Source of the DNA: Leucoraja erinacea
Lineage: Eukaryota
Direction of reading: 5' to 3'
DNA length: 64,000 nt
NCBI RefSeq assembly: GCF_028641065.1
Contig: NC_073389.1
Span: forward strand, 18,414,001 to 18,478,000
The notes below the pieces were generated by a model, which was not told the DNA's origin, did no database searches, and saw only the letters and a list, made by a program, of their open reading frames with translations. Shown in pieces: positions 2,173 to 38,671 of this stretch. The position numbers and the translations under genes were made by a program. The number at the start of each line of letters is the position of its first letter. Within the stretch, counting starts at the first letter, position 1.

Positions 2173-2192
2173 TTCAATTGCTTCCACATATA

Positions 2193-3797
2193 CAGTGGCT
2201 TGCAAAAGTATTCATACCCTTTGAACTTTTCCACATTTTGTCACGTTACAGCCACAAACGTAAATGTATTTTATTGGGATTTTATGTGATAGACCAACAC
2301 AAAGTGGCGCATAATTGTGAAGTGGAAGGAAAATGATACATGGTTTTCAAATTTTTTTACAAATAAAAAAACTGAAAAGTGAGGCGTGCAAAAGTATTCA
2401 GCCCCCTTTACTCTGATACCCCTAAATAAAATCCAGTGCAACCAATTGCCTTCAGAAGTCACCTAATTAGTACATAGAGTCCACTTGTGTGTAATCTAAT
2501 CTCAGTATAAATACAGCTGTTCTGTGAAGGCCTCAGAGGTTTGTTAGAGAACATTAGTGAACAAACAGCATCATGAAGCCCAAGGAACACACCAGGCAGG
2601 TCAGGGATAAAGTTGTGTAGAAGTTTAAAGCAGGGTTAGGTTATAAAAAAATATCCCAAGCTTTGAACATCTCACGGAGCACTGTTCAATCCATCATCCG
2701 AAAATGGAAAGAGTATGGCACAACTGCAAACCTACCAAGACATGGCTGTCCACCTAAACTGACAGGCCGGGCAAGGAGAGCATTGATCAGTGAAGCAGCC
2801 AAGAGGCCCATGGTAACTCTGGAGGAGCTGCAGAGATCCACAGCTCAGGTGGGAGAATCTGTCCACAGGACAACTATTAGTTGTGCACTCCACAAATCGG
2901 GCCTTTACGGAAGAGTGGCAAGAAGAAAGCCATTGTTGAAAAAAAGCCATAAGAAGTCCCGTTTGCAGTTTGCCACAAGCCATGTGGGGGACACAGCAAA
3001 CATGTGGAGGAAGGTGCTCTGGTCAGATGAGACCAAAATTGAAGTTTTTGGCCTAAATGCAAAACGCTATGTGTGGCGGAAAACTGACACTGCACATCAC
3101 CCTGAACACACCATCCCCACTGTGAAACATGGTGGTGGCAGCATCATGCTGTGGGGATGCTTTTCTTCAGCAGGGCAGGGAAACTGGTCAGAGTTGATGG
3201 GAAGATGGATGGAGCCAAATACAGGGCAATATTGGAAGAAAACCTGTTAGAGTCTGCAAAAGACTTGAGACTGGGGCGGAGGTTCACCTTCCAGCAGGAC
3301 AACGACCCTAAACATACAGCCAGAGCTACAATGGAATGGTTTATATCAAAGCATATTCATGTGTTAGAATGGCTCAGTCAAAGTCCAGACCTAAATCCAA
3401 TCCAAGACTTAAAAATTGCTGTTCACAGATGCTCTCCATCCAATCTGACTGAGCTTGAGCTATTTTGCAAAGAAGAATGGGCAAAAATTTCAGTCTGTAG
3501 ATGTGCAAAGCTGGTAGAGACATACCCCAAAAGACTTGCAGCTGTAATTGCAGCGAAAGGTGGTTCTACAAAGTATTGACTCAGGGGGGCTGAATATTTT
3601 TGCACGCCACACTTTTCAGTTTTTTATTTGTAAAAAAATTTGAAAACCATGTATCATTTTCCTTCCACTTCACAATTATGCACCACTTTGTGTTGGTCTA
3701 TTACATAAAATCCCAATAAAATACATTTACGTTTGTGGTTGTAACGTGACAAAATGTGGAAAAGTTCAAGGGGTATGAATACTTTTGCAAGCCACTA
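2193..3797 (+). mobile_element. Tc1/mariner transposon, Passport (PPTN)-like, full length
   Basis: ~210-bp TIRs (cagtggcttgcaaaagtattca..; 2193-2406 and ~3584-3797) with internal direct repeat tgcaaaagtattca; TA at both flanks; transposase inside. Confidence 0.95.
2573..3579 (+). pseudogene. Tc1 DD34E transposase pseudogene
   Basis: MKPKEHTRQVRDKVV* (in-frame TAG 2618-2620), WSDETK, KHGGGSIMLWGCF, frameshift near 3175, QQDNDPKH, SPDLNPI lacking ENLW, ends KGGSTKY. Confidence 0.95.
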
Positions 3798-4260
3798 TAT
3801 CTGGTCTTTTAGAGTGCCAACTTGCAAGAGGCCATTGGGGTAGACTATAGATAGTATATTTGTGCTGGGAACTAGCCATGGTTCACAAGCCTTCATAGTC
3901 ATACATTGGGCAATGCATTGTGAGCTGTTCAGCTGCAATACCTTGGTTTGGCCTTGAATTTAGCGTGATTGTAAGGTGTGGACCAGAATATCCAATGTCC
4001 AATGTCCTATCTATACTGGGATTCAGGACTGCATACAGCTGCGAATCATTCAATTTTGGTGCATATTTATGATTCATTTTTAATTTTATACAACTAATGT
4101 TCTCTGTGACTTTCTGTACATTCCATTTCAATGGTTTTCAAGAGCTGATCATATCATCCCTGAACATCTCTCCTGCAGTTGCCAACTGCCCTCATTCTTT
4201 TATCTGTAGTGGTCCCAAGGAAACCATGCTTGACTCGCTTACTCCTAACTTAGATGTTGA

Positions 4261-24291: not shown

Positions 24292-25069
24292 ACAAGGTTA
24301 ACAAAGTAGAAACTGGTCAACAAGCATGAAGAGTGAAACATATTTCTAGTGGAACCTATTGCTCCCACCCTCTCACAGGTTGGGACAAAAAGAGAGTTTG
24401 TCTGGTTCTTAACTTTCACCCCACCAGCCTCCTCAACAAACTCAAGAATGCTAGGAAATTAACTAGACCAATGGAGGGGGGAAGGAAATCATGTTGATTG
24501 ACAAGAAAATAATATCACCCCGTGAGAATAAGGTAACTATCACATTGGGAGGGATAACATTGGAGGGAAAAAGCAAAAACGGGAATGAAAATGTCTCCAG
24601 AGACTCCCATATTGACTCAGCTAGGAAGGGTCAAGGCAATAACTGTGTTGGTTTGGACAGCATAGTTGCCAAGGAACATCTACAGGGAGAGACAGATAGA
24701 TGGGTGTGAAGATGCAGATAGAGTAGACAGAGCATTTGCCCAGGGTGGAAATGTCAATGACTAGCCTTGCACTTTATCTTTTGCTGCCTTGGAGGAAAAC
24801 TTATTTGCATGAAACAAAAGCTCATCACCTACTCCATCACCCCAATATCAGCATAGTATATGAAGAGTTAATGCTTTGGTGTTAGTCTTTGGCTATTATA
24901 CCAAGAGGACTTGCTGATCTTTGTCGGGTGGTCACATGCTGGACTTTATTTAATGTTTTAACTGGAAGACAGGTCACCAGAACATATAGTCCATGGGCCA
25001 GAAGGGCCTACCGTGCACCCCCCCCTATGATCCTACTTCTTGGGGGGGTTCAGTATGAAAATCACCAAG

Positions 25070-26240
25070 CTCAGCCCGAGGTTTCACAAATTTGTTACGC
25101 TGTTGCATCAGTTTGATTGGCTGGACTTTGCCGATTCCTTTGAAGGCACTTGTTGAGCCACAGCCTGAGAACGCATGCAGTGCAAGTAATGCTGAGCAAT
25201 ATTCTGAGGAGGACTGCTTCTGGGTGACATCTATTAGCCTTTGCCTGTTGCCGCTCCCTGTGTCAAAGAACACCGTGGTGTCTTGAATGCTGTTTGCATA
25301 GTGAAGCAATATGAAGAAGATTTTGCTGTCTGGGCTTTTGACTTGTACGTGGTCATATCCTTGCTCTTTGCCATAGTTGCAGTAAAGGATGACTCGCAAA
25401 TCTGTTTCTTCTTGGTTTGACTTCAGGGATTGAATCTCAGACAGCGGTGTCTCTTTCCCATTCTGAAAAGTAAGACATGTGGCCTCTCCTTCCTTAATGA
25501 AGATCACTGTCCTCACTGACCAGGTAGCCTCTTTGCCATAATCATGCTCACTCCACACATAAAAAATAAGTTTAATGAGCTGTTTCTTGTTCTCATCATT
25601 GGTCAAGAACTGCTTCCAATCTCTTGGTTCTTTGGTCTTTCCTCCTTTGATTATTCTCTTCTCCGCACACCCACGCCGTGTTCGTTCACTTAACTTCACT
25701 GAATCTGGTTTGTACATATCGGTACTGAAGACTACATTATTATTGAAGATTTTTGATGCCAATCTCTTTGAAGTTTGCAGGAATCTCTTTGAGATAGTAG
25801 AATGCAACATTGCCATATCTTGTTACTGGCAGGAGGTTGTGAGTTGTCTACATCTTTCAATAGGTAGTGTAGGCCCTTGGATTTATATGTCGTTGCAAAT
25901 AAGTTGTCTGATGTACCAATGGAGTAGGGTACAGGGGTCAGAAAGTACTTCATAATTTCCTGTAGATTGAGCTGTCTGCCAGAACTTTGTGCTTTGACCA
26001 TCAGTTGAAAAGCAATATCTCCTTGTTGCTTGTACTCTATAACCTTTCGTTCAGATGTTTTCAACTTCACTCTTTTCTTTGTTTCTGCCATTGTTTTGAG
26101 CTTCAGATTCTTGATGGGTTCGGAGAATGCTGTCTTTTTCTCAAGTCGCTCTCTGATGAACGTCTCTTTCTGTTCTTTCCCTGTGGTAAATACCTTTATG
26201 ACATCTTTCTCAATTTCAGCCGGAACACGTGCACCAGAAG
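25070..26240 (-). pseudogene. Academ C-terminal XPG/FEN1-like nuclease region (frameshifted)
   Basis: Motifs matching DGNA, VFD.Y, EEAD, S.DTD and HAF.GCD..S.F.G.GK (H3TH); several acidic residues substituted (DSK, GCG). Confidence 0.8.
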
Positions 26241-27288
26241 TAGCAATGTTACAAAATTTTGAGATTTAAAAAATCAAGTCCGCAATTTATCCCATCAGAT
26301 AAACCATAAATAAAAGTTTAATTTGACACCTAATTCACTTTCATATCTTCAGTATTAAAAAAGAAATGGCCATTTTCATACTCTGAAATTAGCATCTTGT
26401 TCCCTATTGCTTTTCCATTGACTTAACTCAAAAGCTGTGATCAAGGACAGTCAAAAGCCCATAACTTTCTTACAAATTAACAGAACTGAATGAAATTTTC
26501 AGTTCTTATAGATTGAAGCATTTTGAAACAAATATGAAACAATCTTACTTGGATGACCTGAAATTAAAACATATAATTAGTTAGTTACCCAATTGTAGCT
26601 AATTACAAAATTCAATTACCAGATCTAAACATCTATCCATTTCTTAAGAAAAAGTTAACATTTTTAAATAGCCTAAGTGTTCAAATAACATTCACACAAT
26701 AATTCACAATACAATATGATTTTAAAATCCCATTGTCATTCATTTATAGGCCAAATGGAAGGAATTTGGTGTTTAATTCCCGTAAATTAATGGCCATTTA
26801 AATCATTTTGCGAGTGGGATTTTGTGGAACGCGCTGGTTTGGAATGTTGCATTTGCGGTGAATTTAAACGTCATATCGGCAGGGAAAATACTGAAATACT
26901 GAAATGTATATTTACATAATGATATTTTCACAATGTGAAATTTTGATTAAAGGCATCCTGAGAAGTAAGTTTATATATAAAATAAATGGCTTTCCTTTAC
27001 CTGTCCCGTACATGAAATCCGTCTCCGTTGTCGGCATTGACGGCTTTAGAAGATTACTTTTAATTTACTCCTGTTCGTAAAATATCCAGTGCAGTTTAAA
27101 AGAAACTTAATAAAACGGCAGTCAAAGCGATTATTCTTTAGCAGCTAAGCAGCCTGACAGACATCGATTTGAATAGGCTGGAGAAACAAGGCATTTTAAA
27201 CCCGCCCCCTCTCAAAGGCGCCAAAGTCGCGCACACGTGCAGCGACAGATCTGCAGTGTCGCTGAAGGTACGTTTTGTAACATACCTA
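26241..27288 (+). mobile_element. Non-autonomous DNA transposon, TAG..CTA ends, 7-bp TSD (ccagaag), inserted in Academ
   Basis: TIR tagcaatgttacaaaa / ttttgtaacataccta (14 of 16); ccagaag at 26234-26240 and 27289-27295. Confidence 0.92.
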
Positions 27289-27833
27289 CCAGAAGAGAAT
27301 ACATACAACCCAGTCTTGTCATCTATGTCAAAAGGATTCAGGAAGCTCTTCACAACATCGATGGCTTTCTTTACACATGCCTCACCTTTCCTTATCTCAG
27401 TTGATTGATGATGTCTGTGTTTGCTTCCACAATTGGTACCAGAAGTCATGTCTGCTAGGCTGGGAGTTGCAGAGAGAAAGTGTGCCCTTTCTGTTGAAGT
27501 TCGAACCCATCTCTGATAAGCACTGTGATTCTCCAAGATGCCGGAGAACCCAACACCACTACCACCACCTCGAGATTTGCCTTGCTTCATGATCGTCTCC
27601 TCAATCATTTTGTCAACAGCACATTGGTTTCCTGGTATGAACGACCTAGTGACACTGATGGCACCTCTTTCGAGGAAAGCCAGGATGTGGTTCTTCGATG
27701 TTTGCCAAGAACACAGCAAGGTAGGTCAGATAGTGGGAGTAATTGTGACCACCAAAGGTGAAGAAGAGATCAGCATAAGAAACAGACAGTGCAAGTAAAT
27801 GGAAAGTTGTTCTCTTTCACAGGCCTAATCAAT
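27289..27833 (-). pseudogene. Academ transposase middle segment
   Basis: FFTFGGHNYSHYLTYL; RGAISVTRSFIPGNQCAVDKMIEETIMKQGKSRGG; AYQRWVR; FLNPF. Confidence 0.75.
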
Positions 27834-29004
27834 ATAACCATATAACCATATAACAATAACAGCACGGAAACAGGCCATCTCGGCCCTACAAGTCCGTGCC
27901 GAACAAATTTTTTTCCCCTTAGTCCCACCTGCCTGCACTCATACCATAACCCTCCATTCCCTTCTCATCCATATGCCTATCCAATTTATTTTTAAATGAT
28001 ACCAATGAACCTGCCTCCACCACTTCCACTGGGAGCTCATTCCACACCGCTACCACTCTCTGCGTTAAGAAGTTCCCCCTCATATTACCCCTAAACTTCT
28101 GTCCCTTAATTCTGAAGTCATGTCCTCTTGTTTGAATCTTCCCTATTCTCAAAGGGAAAAGCTTGTCCACATCAACTCTGTCTATCCCTCTCATCATTTT
28201 AAAGACCTCTATCAGGTCCCCCCTTAACCTTCTGCGCTCCAGAGAATAAAGACCTAACTTATTCAACCTATCTCTGTAACTTAGTTGTTGAAACCCAGGC
28301 AACATTCTAGTAAATCTCCTCTGTACTCTCTCTATTTTGTTGACATCCTTCCTATAATTGGGCGACCAAAATTGTACACCGTACTCCAGATTTGGTCTCA
28401 CCAATGCCTTGTACAATTTTAACATTACATCCCAGCTTCTATACTCAATGCTCTGATTTATAAAGGCTAGCATACCAAAAGCTTTCTTTACCACCCTATC
28501 TATATGAGATTCCACCTTCAAGGAACTATGCACGGTTATACCCAGATCCTTCTGTTCAACTGTATTCTTCAATTCCCTACCATTTACCATGTACGTCCTA
28601 TTTTGATTTGTCCTACCAAGGTGTAGCACCTCACATTTATCAGCATTAAACTCCATCTGCCATCTTTCAGCCCATTTTTCCAAATGGCCTAAATCACTCT
28701 GTAGACTTTGGAAATCCTCTTCATTATCCACAACACCCCCTATCTTGGTATCATCTGCATACTTACTAATCCAATTTACCACACCATCATCCAGATCATT
28801 GATGTACATGACAAACAACAAAGGACCCAACACAGATCCCTATATAGCCCCGGCTATTTCTACACTAACTTCCCTCAATGTCCTAGGGAATATCCTGTCA
28901 GGACCTGGAGACTTATCCACTTTTATATTTTTCAAAAGTGTCAGTACTTCTTTTACTTTGAACCTCATAGTATCCATAGCTACTCTACTACATAGAGTAT
29001 ACTA
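27834..29004 (-). mobile_element. Young 5'-truncated, internally deleted CR1 LINE inserted in Academ
   Basis: Uninterrupted 304-aa RT C-half (27919-28833; YADDTK, RPNLEYGVQFW); (atggttat)n tail; probable 4-bp TSD caat (27830-27833 and 29005-29008). Confidence 0.95.
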
Positions 29005-29030
29005 CAATGAGAGAGCAATCCACACAGAAT

Positions 29031-29094
29031 CAAGATACAAGATACATTTATTTGTCACATGTACCAATTGGTACAGTGAAATGTGTGGTCACCA
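29031..29094 (-). mobile_element. Short Rex1-type 3' tail inserted in Academ
   Basis: atttcactgtaccaattggtacatgtgacaaataaa(tgtatct)n lies between the Academ codons for YM and DSVW. Confidence 0.65.
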
Positions 29095-29353
29095 TGTACG
29101 ACAACCAAAATTATGCAGTCTTCCTGAGAGATCCTTTTCGAACATCAGCTTTGAAGCTCTCATACGACTCCATCAATGTGCTGAGATCTGCATTGGCCAT
29201 GACTTCAGCAAGCGCCTGCTTTGTTGGCGATCGGATTAGCTCTTGAAAGATGCCCTTTGATTCCTCAGGTATACCTCAGGACAGCACTGCATCTTTTCCA
29301 GCCATAGCCAGGAATTCATCAAGAAGGAGCCTCTCCAAGCACTCCACCATCGT

Positions 29354-29496
29354 CAAAGCTGATCTTCAACATAGTCAAAGGAGGTCGAAGGAGGTCTTCT
29401 ACATAGTCGAAGGTGGTCTTCAACATAACATTTTTTTCAAACTCTCCTAAATTCTTCTAAACTCGCCAATTAGGTTGCCCAATTGGGACAGCCTCT
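29354..29496 (-). mobile_element. MITE end (family of 38092-38671)
   Basis: Reverse complement of ~38093-38235; ends tgggacagcctc. Confidence 0.75.
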
Positions 29497-29625
29497 TAAC
29501 TCAAAGAAGACCTATCCAGGCAGCAACTCTGCCCCTGTGCTACCATGCCACAAATCTGAAGATCTGAAAATAATTTTAAGGTTTGCTTGGTAAGTGTGTA
29601 GCATTACTCATATGATTTTTAACTA

Positions 29626-30349
29626 CAGGTGCACAACCTTTTATCCGGAGTTCCGGAAACCGAAAAACTCCGAAAACCGGCCATTTTTTCCAGGATGTCG
29701 TCTGCACACCAAAGCTCGAGTTTGGCGCCAAACTTGACCCGAAACGACCCACGGTCAACCCAGGTCTGTACTACTGTAGCGGTTGCCTCCTCCCTGGAGA
29801 CCGGGGAGACACCTAAACATCTGTAAATCATTGCTTAAATGTTTGTCAGTTAGTTTGGAGGGCTTTTATGTGAAGGGGGGGGTGAAGGGGTAAACTTAAA
29901 TTCTTAGTCCCCTACCTGGTCGGAGAGGCGGGGAGCGGTCAATGCCTTTGTTGGGAGTCGGCGGCGTCGCAGCGCTGGGATACCAGCGGGGAGCGGGCAA
30001 TGCCTTACCGGGTCGCCGTGCGGTAAGCTCCGGAGCGCTGTGGCCGCCGACTCCCAACATTCGCGGAGCTGGGGCTGTGGGCTGTAGGGGACTAAGAATC
30101 AAAGTTTCCCCCTTTACCCCCACCCCCCACCACCACATAAAATCCCTCCAAACTAACTGACTAACATTTATGCAATGATTTACAATGATTCCCCGGTCTC
30201 CGGGGAGGAGGCAGCCGCTCCAGACTTTTCAAGCCGCCCGCGCTACCTTCCTAATCTACGCTAAAAATCTTCCATTCGGAAATCCGAAAATGTCCGAAAT
30301 CCGCCAAGTGTCTGGTCCCAAGGCTTTCAGATAAAAAGTTGTGCACCTG
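29626..30349. mobile_element. Tigger/pogo-like (Tc1/mariner) MITE with internal palindromes
   Basis: TIR caggtgcacaaccttttatc / gataaaaagttgtgcacctg; TA at both flanks. Confidence 0.9.
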
Positions 30350-30889
30350 TATTTGCCTTTTAACATGAGGTGCAGGAATATCTGAATTGACCAGCTTGAT
30401 TCATTGAAGAGACTACAATCATTTGGTCTGCAATGTATTTGTAGGCAGGCAGATGCACAATACTTTGAAATTGTTGGGCATGAAATTCTGCCACAAGCGA
30501 AATAGCTTTAAAGGAAATCGGCTCCTGATTTACAGTACATTGCTATTCCAAGTTCCTGGAAACAAAAGCAAAAACTAGGCTCAGTGTAAAACAGAAATGT
30601 TTGTTTCAGGCCACTGATGAATGTCACCTTTTATCTTGCCTTCCCCGTCACATGTTGAAAGAGAGTTGTCCCATTGCACATTGCGCTTGATAGCAGATTT
30701 ATATATGGTTGGTGAGTAACGCTAACCAGTGCATACACAATGTTCTTCGTGAATGTATGATTAAATGTTTGTTGCACGCAATGAAGTTCGCTGTGACCTG
30801 TCACATGTGAGTATAAAGTATTCATTCATTCATGATTAGACACTGCACTTCATCTCTGGTACTTGAGTTCATATTTGGATGTGACACGA

Positions 30890-33344: not shown

Positions 33345-34247
33345 GAGTGAGAGTGAGAGAGAGTCAATTTAATTGTCATTTGGACCCCTGGAGGTCCAAA
33401 CGAAATGCCGTTTCTGCAGCCATACATTACACACAAATAGACCCCAGACACAACATAATTACATTTTACATAAACATCCATCACATAGCTGTGATGGAAG
33501 GCCAAAAAACTTATCTCTCCACTGCACTCTCCCCCCCCCCCGATGTCAGAGTCAAAGTCAAAGCCCCCGGCTGGCGATGGCGATTGTCCCGCGGCCATTA
33601 AAGCCACGCCGGGTGGTGCGAGGTCGCACACCGGGTCTTGGTGTTGGAGCCCCCGGTGTGCGCTCGCAAAGTCCCGCGGCCATTCCAGCCGCGCGGGGCA
33701 GTGGTGTCAGGCCCCGCTCCAGGAGCTCTTCGACCCCGCAAATCGGGCGGGAGAATTCGCCGTTGCAGGAGCCCCGAAAAGCGGTCTCCCTCCAGGGATC
33801 CGCGGGCTCCCGGTGCCGCCGTCCGCAGACCCGCAGTAGCAGCCTCCGCATCAGCAGCAGCAGCAGCAGCGGCATCGGCAGCAGCAGCAGCAGCAGCAGC
33901 AGTGGCAGCAGCAGCGGCAGCGCTCCTCCACCGCTCCACCCGCTCCGGTCTCGGCCAGCTCCGCGACGGCAACGGTGAGTCGGCACCAGAGTCCCTGGCT
34001 TCTTCCCGTTGGAGGCCGCTCCTCGTTGCGGCCTCAACGACACCTGAGACCCGACGAGAAAAGGTCGGGTCTCCAGTGCAGGGAGAGATTCAAAAGTACC
34101 CCCCCCCCCCTCCCCCCCCCCCCCCATCCCCCCACACACACACACCCCAACATAAAATAACAAAAACTACATAAAAACACAGACAAAAAATAATAAAACG
34201 CGGACAGGCTGCAGAGGCCGCTGCTGGCCAGAGCCGCGCCGCCTACC
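33345..34247 (-). mobile_element. Non-autonomous Rex1-type retroposon, GC-rich, with a (CTG)n tract
   Basis: Minus-strand tail catttcgtttggacctccaggggtccaaatgacaattaaattgactc(tctcac)n; GCA repeat 33836-33920; no RT; ggag on both flanks. Confidence 0.65.
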
Positions 34248-35461
34248 GGAGGAGGGAGCTGCTGGCGGGACGGATGTGAGGAGTGGGCCGGTAGGAGAGG
34301 GACTGGGGTATTATCTCCAGCACCTTCAAGATTGGCTGATGAAGGCATCCCCGGGACACAGGGTGGGATCAGCAGAGGAGAGGGAGGTCGGGTTGCGGGC
34401 CTGTGGGCTTGGATCAGGGGCACTCCAGGACTTCCAACATGTGGACTGGACTTGGTGCTGTCCATATTTTCCGTTTTTTAAATTTTAAACGGTGTCAAAA
34501 CTGTGGCGACTGCATCTGTGGCCGTGCAAAAGAATTTCACTGTGCTGTGTATACGTGCCAACTTTTAACTAGTGAGCCACTGAGGGAGATTCATTAATCC
34601 ATCATCTTATTCAGGGTAGATTGGAGCTTAACATGCCGTGGATGGTTCTGTCACATTTGCAAACTTTTCTTGCCTACTTGGAGACAGGTCTTTTGGAATG
34701 TAAGCTCAGCTCTGATGGTTTGCACAATCTCCCTCCAGGCAAACGGAATTTGCCGAGAGGGACACCCTTAGGAATTCTCTTGTACCTGACATCTTCCAGC
34801 AGCACCTCCCTGTTATGCCAGGCAACTCTGGTGAAGTGACACACCAATGTGCCATTTGCTCACGGTGTAATGCAGAATGAGTGGGCGAGAAACAAACCTT
34901 CCATTAAGTGCCTGAAGCCATCAAGGCAGCAGCAGATATCCTGAACTTCCCTTGTCTGATATGTTAACCTCCAGCAGCGTACTTGAATGTGCATTGGTGT
35001 ATGACCCAGGCCTCTCAGGACAGCTGTATATTCTCTGGGTGGACACAATGCCCACATCTCCATGTTTATTGACAACAGGCTCAATCTGAAGAAGGGTCCC
35101 AATCCGAAACATCACCAATCTATGTTCTCCGCAGATGCTGCTTGACCCACTGAGTTACTCCAGCACTTTTTTTCCTTTTGTGTAATAACCAGCATCTGCT
35201 GGTGACACTTATTCTCATAGAAATAAATCAAATAATCTTAACATTTCCTGTTCTATTAGGAGTCTGCCTTGAATGCATCCCCCTTTCCCCAGTTTCCTTC
35301 AATATGCTAGATCATAAATAAAAAGAGACAAAATACAAATATTGTAATTACAGCAAGTTCCACTTAGATTCCATTTATGTATAGCATATTATAATGTACA
35401 CTGTTTACTGTGTAATCTTCATGCAAACAAATAATTTCTTTGCACAATGGTGTTCAGCTTA

Positions 35462-38091: not shown

Positions 38092-38671
38092 AAGGGGCTG
38101 TCCCAATGCAGCGACCTAATTGGCGAGTTTAGAAGAGTTTAGGAGAGTTTGAAAAAGTGTCATGTTGAAGACCTCCTTCAACTATGTAGAAGACCTCCTT
38201 CGACCTCCTTTGACTATGTTGAAAACTAGCTTCGACTAGCTACAACTAGCTTCGGAAAAATTGGACACTGAATAGTGGCGAATGAAGTTGACCTCCTTCG
38301 ATCTCCTTCGACCTCCCTCCGACTATGTTGAAGACTACGACTACCTTCGACTACCTTCGATTACCTTCGACTACCCTCGATTACCTACGAATAACATGCC
38401 GACCTACTACGACGTACTTCGGCTAAACCTACGAGTAAAAAAAAAATTTTTTTTTTCCATGGCAACCTTTTATTACTCGCAGGCATTTTTCAGCATGTTG
38501 AAAAATACGCCGCGACCTAGTTGAGGCCTCGAATACGTGTAGACTACTCTCGAGTATGAAGGAGAGTTACAAAGACCTCCCAGGACCTCGTGTTGACCAT
38601 TCTGCGCGTATTAGTCGAGGGCAAACTCTTCTAAACTCGCCAATTAGGTTGCCGCAGTGGGACAGCCCCTT
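38092..38671. mobile_element. Complete MITE with long TIRs (aaggggctgtccca..), TA-flanked
   Basis: aaggggctgtcccaatgcagcgacctaattggcgagtttagaagagttt and inverse at ~38624-38671; internal taccttcgac repeats. Confidence 0.85.

What the first reader, a model, noticed from the sequence alone, without database searches (positions are those of the whole stretch)
24987..29353. Hidden AcademX-type transposase-XPG nuclease fossil in a vertebrate sequence
Seen: scattered minus-strand ORF pieces join into about 650 aa: ECLERLL..FWLSYMD..IR.VKENNF..GGHNYSHY..D..IEET..K.RGG (transposase part), then DGNVAF, VFSTDMY, EETDLR, SPDSK, HAFSGCGSTSAFKGIGK (XPG/FEN1-like with H3TH). The coding sequence runs into a ~70-nt GC-rich end finishing ..ggcccatggacta, with the expected Cys-rich tail missing. 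Known: Academ elements encode a transposase fused to an XPG domain and Cys8 finger, have YR termini, and are poorly characterised mechanistically. Inference: an internally deleted, dead copy of a chondrichthyan Academ family. Intact relatives would show how a flap-type nuclease assists transposition.
Basis: partly seen in the sequence, partly recalled or inferred. Interest (0 to 1): 0.7.

Follow-up and report, generated by a model that had tools for sequence, protein, structure and literature searches.

The report
Dead AcademX transposon copy, no Cys8
This is a broken copy of a known but little-studied jumping gene, one of about sixty damaged copies found in this genome; its intact relatives encode one protein predicted to join a cut-and-paste enzyme to a DNA-trimming nuclease, which likely processes the cut DNA ends.

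Summary
Window 29354-24987 (minus) is a dead, 5'-truncated copy of a low-copy DNA transposon family (64 of 79 fetched loci), interrupted by three later insertions. The commonest form is 3.1 kb, with 198-bp TAG-ended inverted repeats and 3-bp target duplications (11 of 18 two-ended copies; 3% in mismatched pairs). Copies lie about 4% from their consensus. That consensus is 79% identical to residues 548-1427 of an intact 1575-aa homolog, so the whole 3.1-kb form lacks the first catalytic Asp and is non-autonomous. No full-length copy was found. An AlphaFold model of a homolog matches EXO1/XPG/FEN1/Xrn nucleases (Z 14.1-11) and, for the DDE part, P-element transposase (Z 10.1). Corrections: the Cys8 tail was not deleted, since this lineage ends in an acidic tail (0 of 33 close homologs have Cys8); the '70-nt end' is a remnant of the 198-bp repeat; 'DGNVAF' reads YGNVAF. 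Verdict: new member of a known kind (AcademX). This scan already reported AcademX copies in other genomes, rays included. The nuclease's role remains inferred.

The parts
29092..29354 (-). First surviving piece of the element (consensus nt 775-1034; helical insertion region of the transposase). The 5' 774 nt, with the left TIR and the second catalytic Asp, are absent from the whole window. One stop codon lies near 29113.
29032..29091 (.). 60-nt later insertion; a repeat fragment also seen in 3 of 79 other loci
29009..29031 (-). Short second piece of the element (SVWIALSL region)
27834..29008 (-). Later insertion: 5'-truncated LINE fragment with a reverse-transcriptase frame (Pfam RVT_1, E 6.2e-9). 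The CR1 label is recalled, not tested.
27289..27833 (-). Third piece: end of the DDE domain with the invariant D-x-x-x-E motif (VDKMIEET; D909/E913 of P0001)
26241..27288 (.). Later insertion: 1048-nt non-coding DNA element with TAG...CTA ends and ~16-nt imperfect inverted repeats, flanked by a 7-nt direct repeat; present in 8 of 79 other loci
25054..26240 (-). Fourth piece: linker and EXO1/XPG/FEN1-like 5' nuclease domain, frameshifted; three of seven conserved acidic residues are changed (DGN to YGN, SPDSD to SPDSK, GCD to GCG)
25045..25053 (-). Junction of a copy-specific ~230-nt deletion (consensus 2817-3046)
24987..25044 (-). Outer 58 nt of the 198-bp right terminal inverted repeat, ending ...GGACTA (5'-TAG on the other strand)

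Best explanation
The window holds a dead, truncated copy of a non-autonomous 3.1-kb deletion derivative of an AcademX DNA transposon, which was likely moved in trans by a now-lost full-length parent whose single protein is predicted to join a P-element-like DDE transposase to an EXO1/XPG/FEN1-type 5' nuclease that likely trims the non-transferred 5' strands at the cut ends. Shown: multi-copy family, TAG-ended TIRs, 3-bp TSDs, loss of the first catalytic Asp in the 3.1-kb form, lesions in this copy, conservation of both active-site sets in homologs. Predicted: the two folds. Inferred: the DDE site nicks the 3' ends and joins them to target DNA with a 3-nt stagger; the fused nuclease cuts or resects the other strand or removes 5' flaps (about 45% for this role, given an active nuclease); deletion forms arose by abortive repair of excision gaps.
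For: Multi-copy: 129 matches; 52 TIR ends against 0 for the reversed control; 64 of 79 fetched loci belong to the family. Ends: 198-bp inverted repeats, 97% complementary; exact 3-bp TSD in 11 of 18 two-ended copies and <=1 mismatch in 16 of 18, against 9 of 306 (3%) and 29% in mismatched pairs. The consensus keeps a 901-codon frame equal to P0001 548-1427 at 79%. DDE candidates conserved in alignment A1: D490 59/60, D659 78/78, H688 82/83, E913 106/106. Nuclease residues: D1162 119/122, D1199 120/121, K1207 120/121, R1214 119/121, E1301 118/119, D1303 118/119, D1327 115/117, D1329 117/117, D1386 109/111. Profile A2 ranks human EXO1 first in the PDB, E 0.004. Model of homolog P0042 (pLDDT 89.6): residues 679-1056 match EXO1 (Z 14.1, rmsd 3.7, 259 aligned) and Xrn1/XPG/GEN1/FEN1 (Z 11.0-11.4); residues 2-494 match P-element transposase (Z 10.1, rmsd 4.5, 299 aligned), then Tn5, integrases and Hermes. 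Foldseek gives XRN-family E 4.5e-4. Decay: 57 copies, mean K2P 0.042, 201 stops, pN/pS 0.78. AcademX is described as nuclease-encoding with 3-4-bp TSDs (PMC10045372, passage read).
Against: No Pfam XPG/PIN match for the window pieces, 16 whole homologs or 68 alignment members. The model of the window's own 231-aa piece gave no Foldseek hit at E<=0.001 and only Z 4.6-6.4, although its top 10 rows were all 5' nucleases. The P-element Z of 10.1 is for a helix-rich region, where middling Z is common. 7 of 18 two-ended copies lack an exact TSD. No Repbase Academ sequence was compared, and the defining papers were not readable. pN/pS 0.78 is below 1 and uncorrected for transition and CpG bias. The nuclease's role has no direct evidence here.
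Confidence: 0.9

Rival explanations
1. Same element, but the fused nuclease acts after excision: it would resect the empty donor site so that homologous gap repair copies the element back from the sister chromatid, raising copy number. Abortive repair would leave the deletion forms.
For: The best fold match is EXO1, a resection nuclease (recalled). Deletion forms break close to the inner edge of an end: left junction at nt 198, right junctions about 218 and 298 nt from the end. The left end of the N-terminally deleted forms continues with 40-75 nt of inverted right-end sequence, unlike the true left end in L071/L072, as a template switch would produce.
Against: Such deletion forms can arise with host repair enzymes alone (recalled for P and Ac/Ds). 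The extended left end may instead come from a sister subfamily with longer TIRs. Copy number is low (52 TIR ends).
Confidence: 0.25
2. Same element, but the nuclease acts at the target and sets the short TSD by trimming the strand-transfer product.
For: A passage in PMC10045372 links 3-4-bp versus 9-10-bp TSDs to nuclease versus helicase in the two Academ lineages. 3-bp TSDs are seen here.
Against: TSD length normally follows the stagger of the DDE attack (established knowledge). The correlation involves only two lineages.
Confidence: 0.15
3. The 3.1-kb form is a minimal autonomous element, or a domesticated host gene, because its consensus keeps a 901-codon open frame.
For: Uninterrupted consensus frame covering most of the DDE domain and the nuclease; the same deletion junctions are spanned by contigs of other coded organisms; pN/pS 0.78.
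Against: The frame starts after the first RNase H strand, so D490 and the N-terminal 547 residues are missing. 57 copies carry 201 stops, and the window copy has 7 frameshifts, 1 stop and three altered catalytic residues.
Confidence: 0.03

Closest known systems
AcademX lineage of the Academ superfamily (Kapitonov and Jurka 2010; Kojima 2020; neither text seen: known from recall and from passages of PMC10045372, and PMC5751038)
   Same: One protein with a DDE transposase followed by an XPG/FEN1-superfamily nuclease; TIRs; 3-bp TSDs; T-A termini; full-length homologs of about 1500-1610 aa.
   Different: No C-terminal Cys8 finger: an acidic tail in this family and in all 33 homologs at >=40% identity to P0001, whereas 31 of 63 more distant ones carry >=6 Cys there. 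Cys8 presence needs one change on a 43-row quick tree. All copies found here are deletion forms.
Drosophila P-element transposase (PDB 6p5a)
   Same: Best-scoring transposase fold for the DDE part, an RNase H core with a large helical insertion (Z 10.1). An invariant His follows the second Asp (G-x-x-H), where P/hAT/MuDR/Kolobok/Dada have C/DxxH (PMC9587614 passage).
   Different: P has no fused 5' nuclease, makes a 17-nt staggered cut and needs GTP (PMC7776569 passages). GTP binding and cut geometry were not tested here.
EXO1 / XPG / FEN1 / GEN1 / Xrn 5' nuclease superfamily
   Same: Fold match (Z 14.1 EXO1; 11.0-11.4 Xrn1, XPG, GEN1, FEN1). Seven acidic residues, the S-x-K-x-x-E-R-x-x-R segment and the G-C-D...G-x-G-K motif are conserved.
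   Different: 9-14% identity, no Pfam XPG_N/XPG_I match, fused to a transposase. The subfamily cannot be assigned.
AcademH lineage
   Same: Same superfamily according to PMC10045372.
   Different: AcademH has a helicase and 9-10-bp TSDs; here a nuclease and 3-bp TSDs.

Membership tests
AcademX | DDE transposase domain | tested here: met
   In homologs: near-invariant D490, D659, E913 on strand 1, after strand 4 and in a helix of the model; fold matches P element, Tn5, integrases and Hermes. The window copy keeps only the Glu.
AcademX | XPG/FEN1-superfamily nuclease in the same protein, C-terminal to the transposase | tested here: met
   EXO1 top sequence-profile hit, E 0.004; Z 14.1 EXO1 and 11.2 XPG on the homolog model; weak but same-superfamily rows for the window's own piece. 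Pfam blank.
AcademX | 3- or 4-bp target-site duplications | tested here: met
   11 of 18 two-ended copies have an exact 3-bp TSD against 9 of 306 mismatched pairs. Not testable on the window copy, which lacks its left end.
AcademX | Terminal inverted repeats with 5'-YR ends (feature recalled, from no call) | tested here: met
   198-bp TIRs beginning TAG; about 160 bp in copies with the true left end.
Academ (original description, recalled) | C-terminal Cys8 zinc finger | tested here: not met
   Acidic tail in L042, L043, L070; 0 of 33 close homologs, 31 of 63 distant ones. Whether Cys8 is required for AcademX could not be read: the one definition seen names only the nuclease and TSD length. 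The element is therefore filed as AcademX of a Cys8-less clade, not as the Cys8 type.
AcademX | Sequence or phylogenetic grouping with Repbase AcademX transposases | not testable with these tools
   No Repbase sequences on hand; no homolog returned carries an Academ label.
AcademH | Helicase gene and 9-10-bp TSDs | tested here: not met
   TSDs are 3 bp, none longer among 18 copies; no helicase family in Pfam scans of 15 full-length homologs.
Autonomous element | Intact full-length ORF with the whole DDE triad and both ends | tested here: not met
   None of 65 family loci has both D490 and the nuclease. Genome searches are floors.

The most novel reading that the evidence does not exclude
AcademX splits into Cys8 and Cys8-less clades, and its enzyme is a P-element-like transposase that carries its own EXO1-type nuclease. 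Instead of a long staggered cut it would resect its own non-transferred strands or the donor gap, a self-contained cut-resect-paste mechanism not described for a eukaryotic DDE transposase. The inverted right-end patches at the left ends of the skate derivatives would be its footprint.
Probability: 0.3. Interest if true: 0.6.

Novelty: new member of a known kind. Interest (0 to 1): 0.27.

Why it matters
The copy itself is an ordinary fossil. Its use is as a pointer: it fixes the TIR, the 3-bp TSD and the deletion history of one family, and it leads to intact Cys8-less homologs (P0001, P0002; 79% and 75% identical) in which both active sites can be mutated separately. That makes the open question of why a DDE transposase carries a second, 5' nuclease directly testable. 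The Cys8-less clade and the P-element-like fold refine the description of Academ.

Tried and rejected
Pfam on 6 window pieces, 16 homologs and the 68 members of A2: no XPG/PIN family; only sub-threshold DUF6589 (best 3.4e-5) and TCR/CXC in 3 of 68 members. Single-sequence PDB search: nothing. Foldseek on the window's own 231-aa model: nothing at E<=0.001. Search for a full-length copy by protein, TIR pattern and N-terminal DNA, with 81 larger loci read: only deletion forms. One search used a stricter first look, and 10-kb loci can cut copies with large insertions. The left TIR and 5' part were sought in the whole window and are absent. The sequence upstream of 29354 first looked shared with copy L103, but it is an unrelated abundant repeat. 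Expression: no RNA holder listed; one RNA run of another coded organism gave 22 scattered reads of 7.3 million, not used as evidence. Horizontal transfer: untested, because the two closest homologs are unnamed and run organisms are coded. The tree is the quick one; the careful search did not finish, and it used 42 chosen homologs of about 230 held. Paper searches 'Academ'+'XPG'+'transposase' and 'Academ'+'XPG' returned 0. The defining papers were not held, so absence from print is not shown. No supplements were read. My notebook says 8-bp TSD for the 26241-27288 insert; the junctions give 7 nt with TAG ends.
Full report
Observation. On the minus strand, 29354-24987 holds four coding pieces separated by three later insertions: 60 nt (29032-29091), a LINE fragment with a reverse-transcriptase frame (27834-29008; Pfam RVT_1 E 6.2e-9) and a 1048-nt non-coding DNA element (26241-27288). 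The pieces total 2011 nt and align at 93.6% to the family consensus. The host is probably a skate: a piece of this family forms the first 100 residues of a thorny-skate gene model at 88% identity. That is inference.

The family. The 265-aa piece has 129 matches in the own genome. Of 79 larger loci fetched at matches, 64 belong to the family at more than 45% identity to P0001 (neighbouring loci can hold one element), and one more was found later. A TIR pattern finds 52 ends against 0 for the control, so this is a low-copy family; counts are floors. Fourteen two-ended copies give a 3103-nt consensus with 198-bp inverted repeats starting TAG and a 901-codon open frame. Exact 3-bp duplications flank 11 of 18 two-ended copies, 16 of 18 with at most one mismatch, against 3% and 29% in mismatched pairs. 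57 copies lie at K2P 0.027-0.060 from the consensus (mean 0.042), with 201 stops and pN/pS 0.78, uncorrected: close to neutral decay after one burst (inference). Twenty of 22 listed runs, from nine coded organisms, hold part of one copy. In the three DNA runs laid, contigs cover all 30 bins and listed pieces span the deletion junctions, so the 3.1-kb form is shared with other organisms.

The window copy. It lacks the first 774 nt, which are absent from the whole window, and an unrelated abundant repeat abuts the break. A deletion of about 230 nt joins the coding part to the outer 58 nt of the right TIR. It has 7 frameshifts and 1 stop, lacks the first two catalytic Asp candidates, and three of seven acidic nuclease residues are changed. 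It is dead.

The parent. The search of longer proteins gave 52 homologs, 15 of them 1500-1610 aa. The consensus equals P0001 548-1427 at 79%. The 3.1-kb form therefore lacks the N-terminal 547 residues, including the F-H-S-x-F-D-N strand with D490, and the last 148 residues. Other deletion forms keep the N-terminus (L071, L072, L098, L111) or the C-terminus (L042, L043, L070); none has both D490 and the nuclease. The C-terminus ends in an acidic tail, not a Cys cluster. Among 96 scored homologs, 0 of 33 at >=40% identity to P0001 and 31 of 63 below 40% have six or more Cys there. On a quick tree of 43 rows the Cys8 label needs one change (shuffled mean 11), and the family sits with P0001 and P0002 at support 100 among Cys8-less rows. 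Named Cys8-less relatives come from a limpet, a sea urchin, a jellyfish cluster and a cavefish. A second, distant family in this genome does carry Cys8 (L051).

Domains. Pfam is blank. A profile of the C-terminal part ranks human EXO1 first (E 0.004), aligning the S-K-x-x-E-R-x-x-R segment and the G-C-D motif. The window's own 231-aa model (pLDDT 88.5) gave no Foldseek hit and Z 4.6-6.4 against Xrn, T5 exonuclease, FEN1 and EXO1; it lacks the first strand. The model of homolog P0042 (1118 aa, pLDDT 89.6) matches EXO1 at Z 14.1 and Xrn1, XPG, GEN1 and FEN1 at Z 11.0-11.4 over residues 679-1072, and P-element transposase at Z 10.1 over 2-494, followed by Tn5, integrases and Hermes. Foldseek agrees on the nuclease (E 4.5e-4). 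Candidate catalytic residues of both domains are 98-100% conserved in alignment A1, so both sites were likely active in the parent.

Ends. Copies that keep the start of the gene leave the inverted repeat at about nt 160. Copies that lost the N-terminus continue for 40-75 nt with inverted right-end sequence before jumping into coding DNA. This fits a template switch during gap repair, or a sister subfamily with longer TIRs; I cannot separate the two.

Mechanism. Shown: TIRs, 3-bp TSDs, two conserved active-site sets in one frame. Predicted: the two folds. Inferred: the DDE site nicks and joins the 3' ends with a 3-nt stagger, and the 5' nuclease deals with the other strand or with 5' flaps (about 45%). 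Alternatives are resection of the donor gap (25%) or target trimming (15%). The P element reaches long single-stranded ends by a 17-nt staggered cut (PMC7776569, passages), which makes end processing the natural guess for a P-like core with a fused nuclease. Nothing here tests it.

Known. PMC10045372 (passages) states that AcademX encodes a nuclease and makes 3-4-bp TSDs. PMC5751038 (passages) notes that Academ RNase H domains lack Pfam matches. PMC10294476 (passages) gives a mean length of 5565 bp for curated bivalve Academ elements. PMC9004415 (passages) lists an Academ fossil in amniotes. PMC9587614, PMC3627910, PMC4298943, PMC8230255 and bioRxiv 2021.09.26.461848 were seen as passages only. 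Kojima 2020, Kapitonov and Jurka 2010 and Yuan and Wessler 2011 were not seen; the Cys8 and YR features are recalled. Earlier notes of this scan report AcademX copies in other genomes, rays included; none lies near this window.

Verdict. Observation confirmed; interpretation right in kind and wrong on the Cys8 tail. New member of a known kind; interest 0.27.

Noticed in passing
window 2187-3803: Young Tc1-like DNA transposon: 184-nt arms 97% complementary, CAGTG ends next to TA, transposase in two overlapping frames, 2621-3250 and 3106-3579. The Tc1 label is recalled from its motifs.
   Followed up: partly
window 26241-27288: Non-coding DNA element with TAG...CTA ends and a 7-nt flanking direct repeat; 77-90% matches in 8 of 79 loci. 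Superfamily not assigned.
   Followed up: partly
window 29356-29500 and 38092-38236: Abundant ~145-nt repeat (2164 candidates, 90-94% identity) abutting the truncated 5' end; a second copy lies in the window.
   Followed up: partly
L051:2574-7350 (G000:C4): A second, distant Academ-type family (27% to P0001) spanning nearly the whole protein, broken, with a Cys8 tail; related pieces in L052-L059.
   Followed up: partly
P0052 residues 1-100: A thorny-skate CDHR2 gene model begins with 100 residues of this transposon family (88% to the consensus): exonization or an annotation artefact.
   Followed up: no
L042, L043, L100 and the 3.1-kb copies, left ends: Left ends of N-terminally deleted forms carry 40-75 nt of inverted right-end sequence beyond the ~160-bp repeat of L071/L072; L043 has an AT-rich filler after it.
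   Followed up: partly
L072:7378-7612 approx. (query 588-825): A ~235-nt near-palindromic insert with many 94-97% identical copies in the genome; looks like a young MITE.
   Followed up: no
window 33373-34477: GC-rich stretch (58% and 52% GC bins) with poly-Ala/Ser/Leu frames; possibly a CpG island or first exon of a host gene.
   Followed up: no
window 29660-30340 approx.: GC-rich stretch with matching ends (minus strand 'tacaggtgcacaac' near 30350, 'gttgtgcacctgta' near 29630), likely another non-autonomous DNA element just upstream.
   Followed up: no
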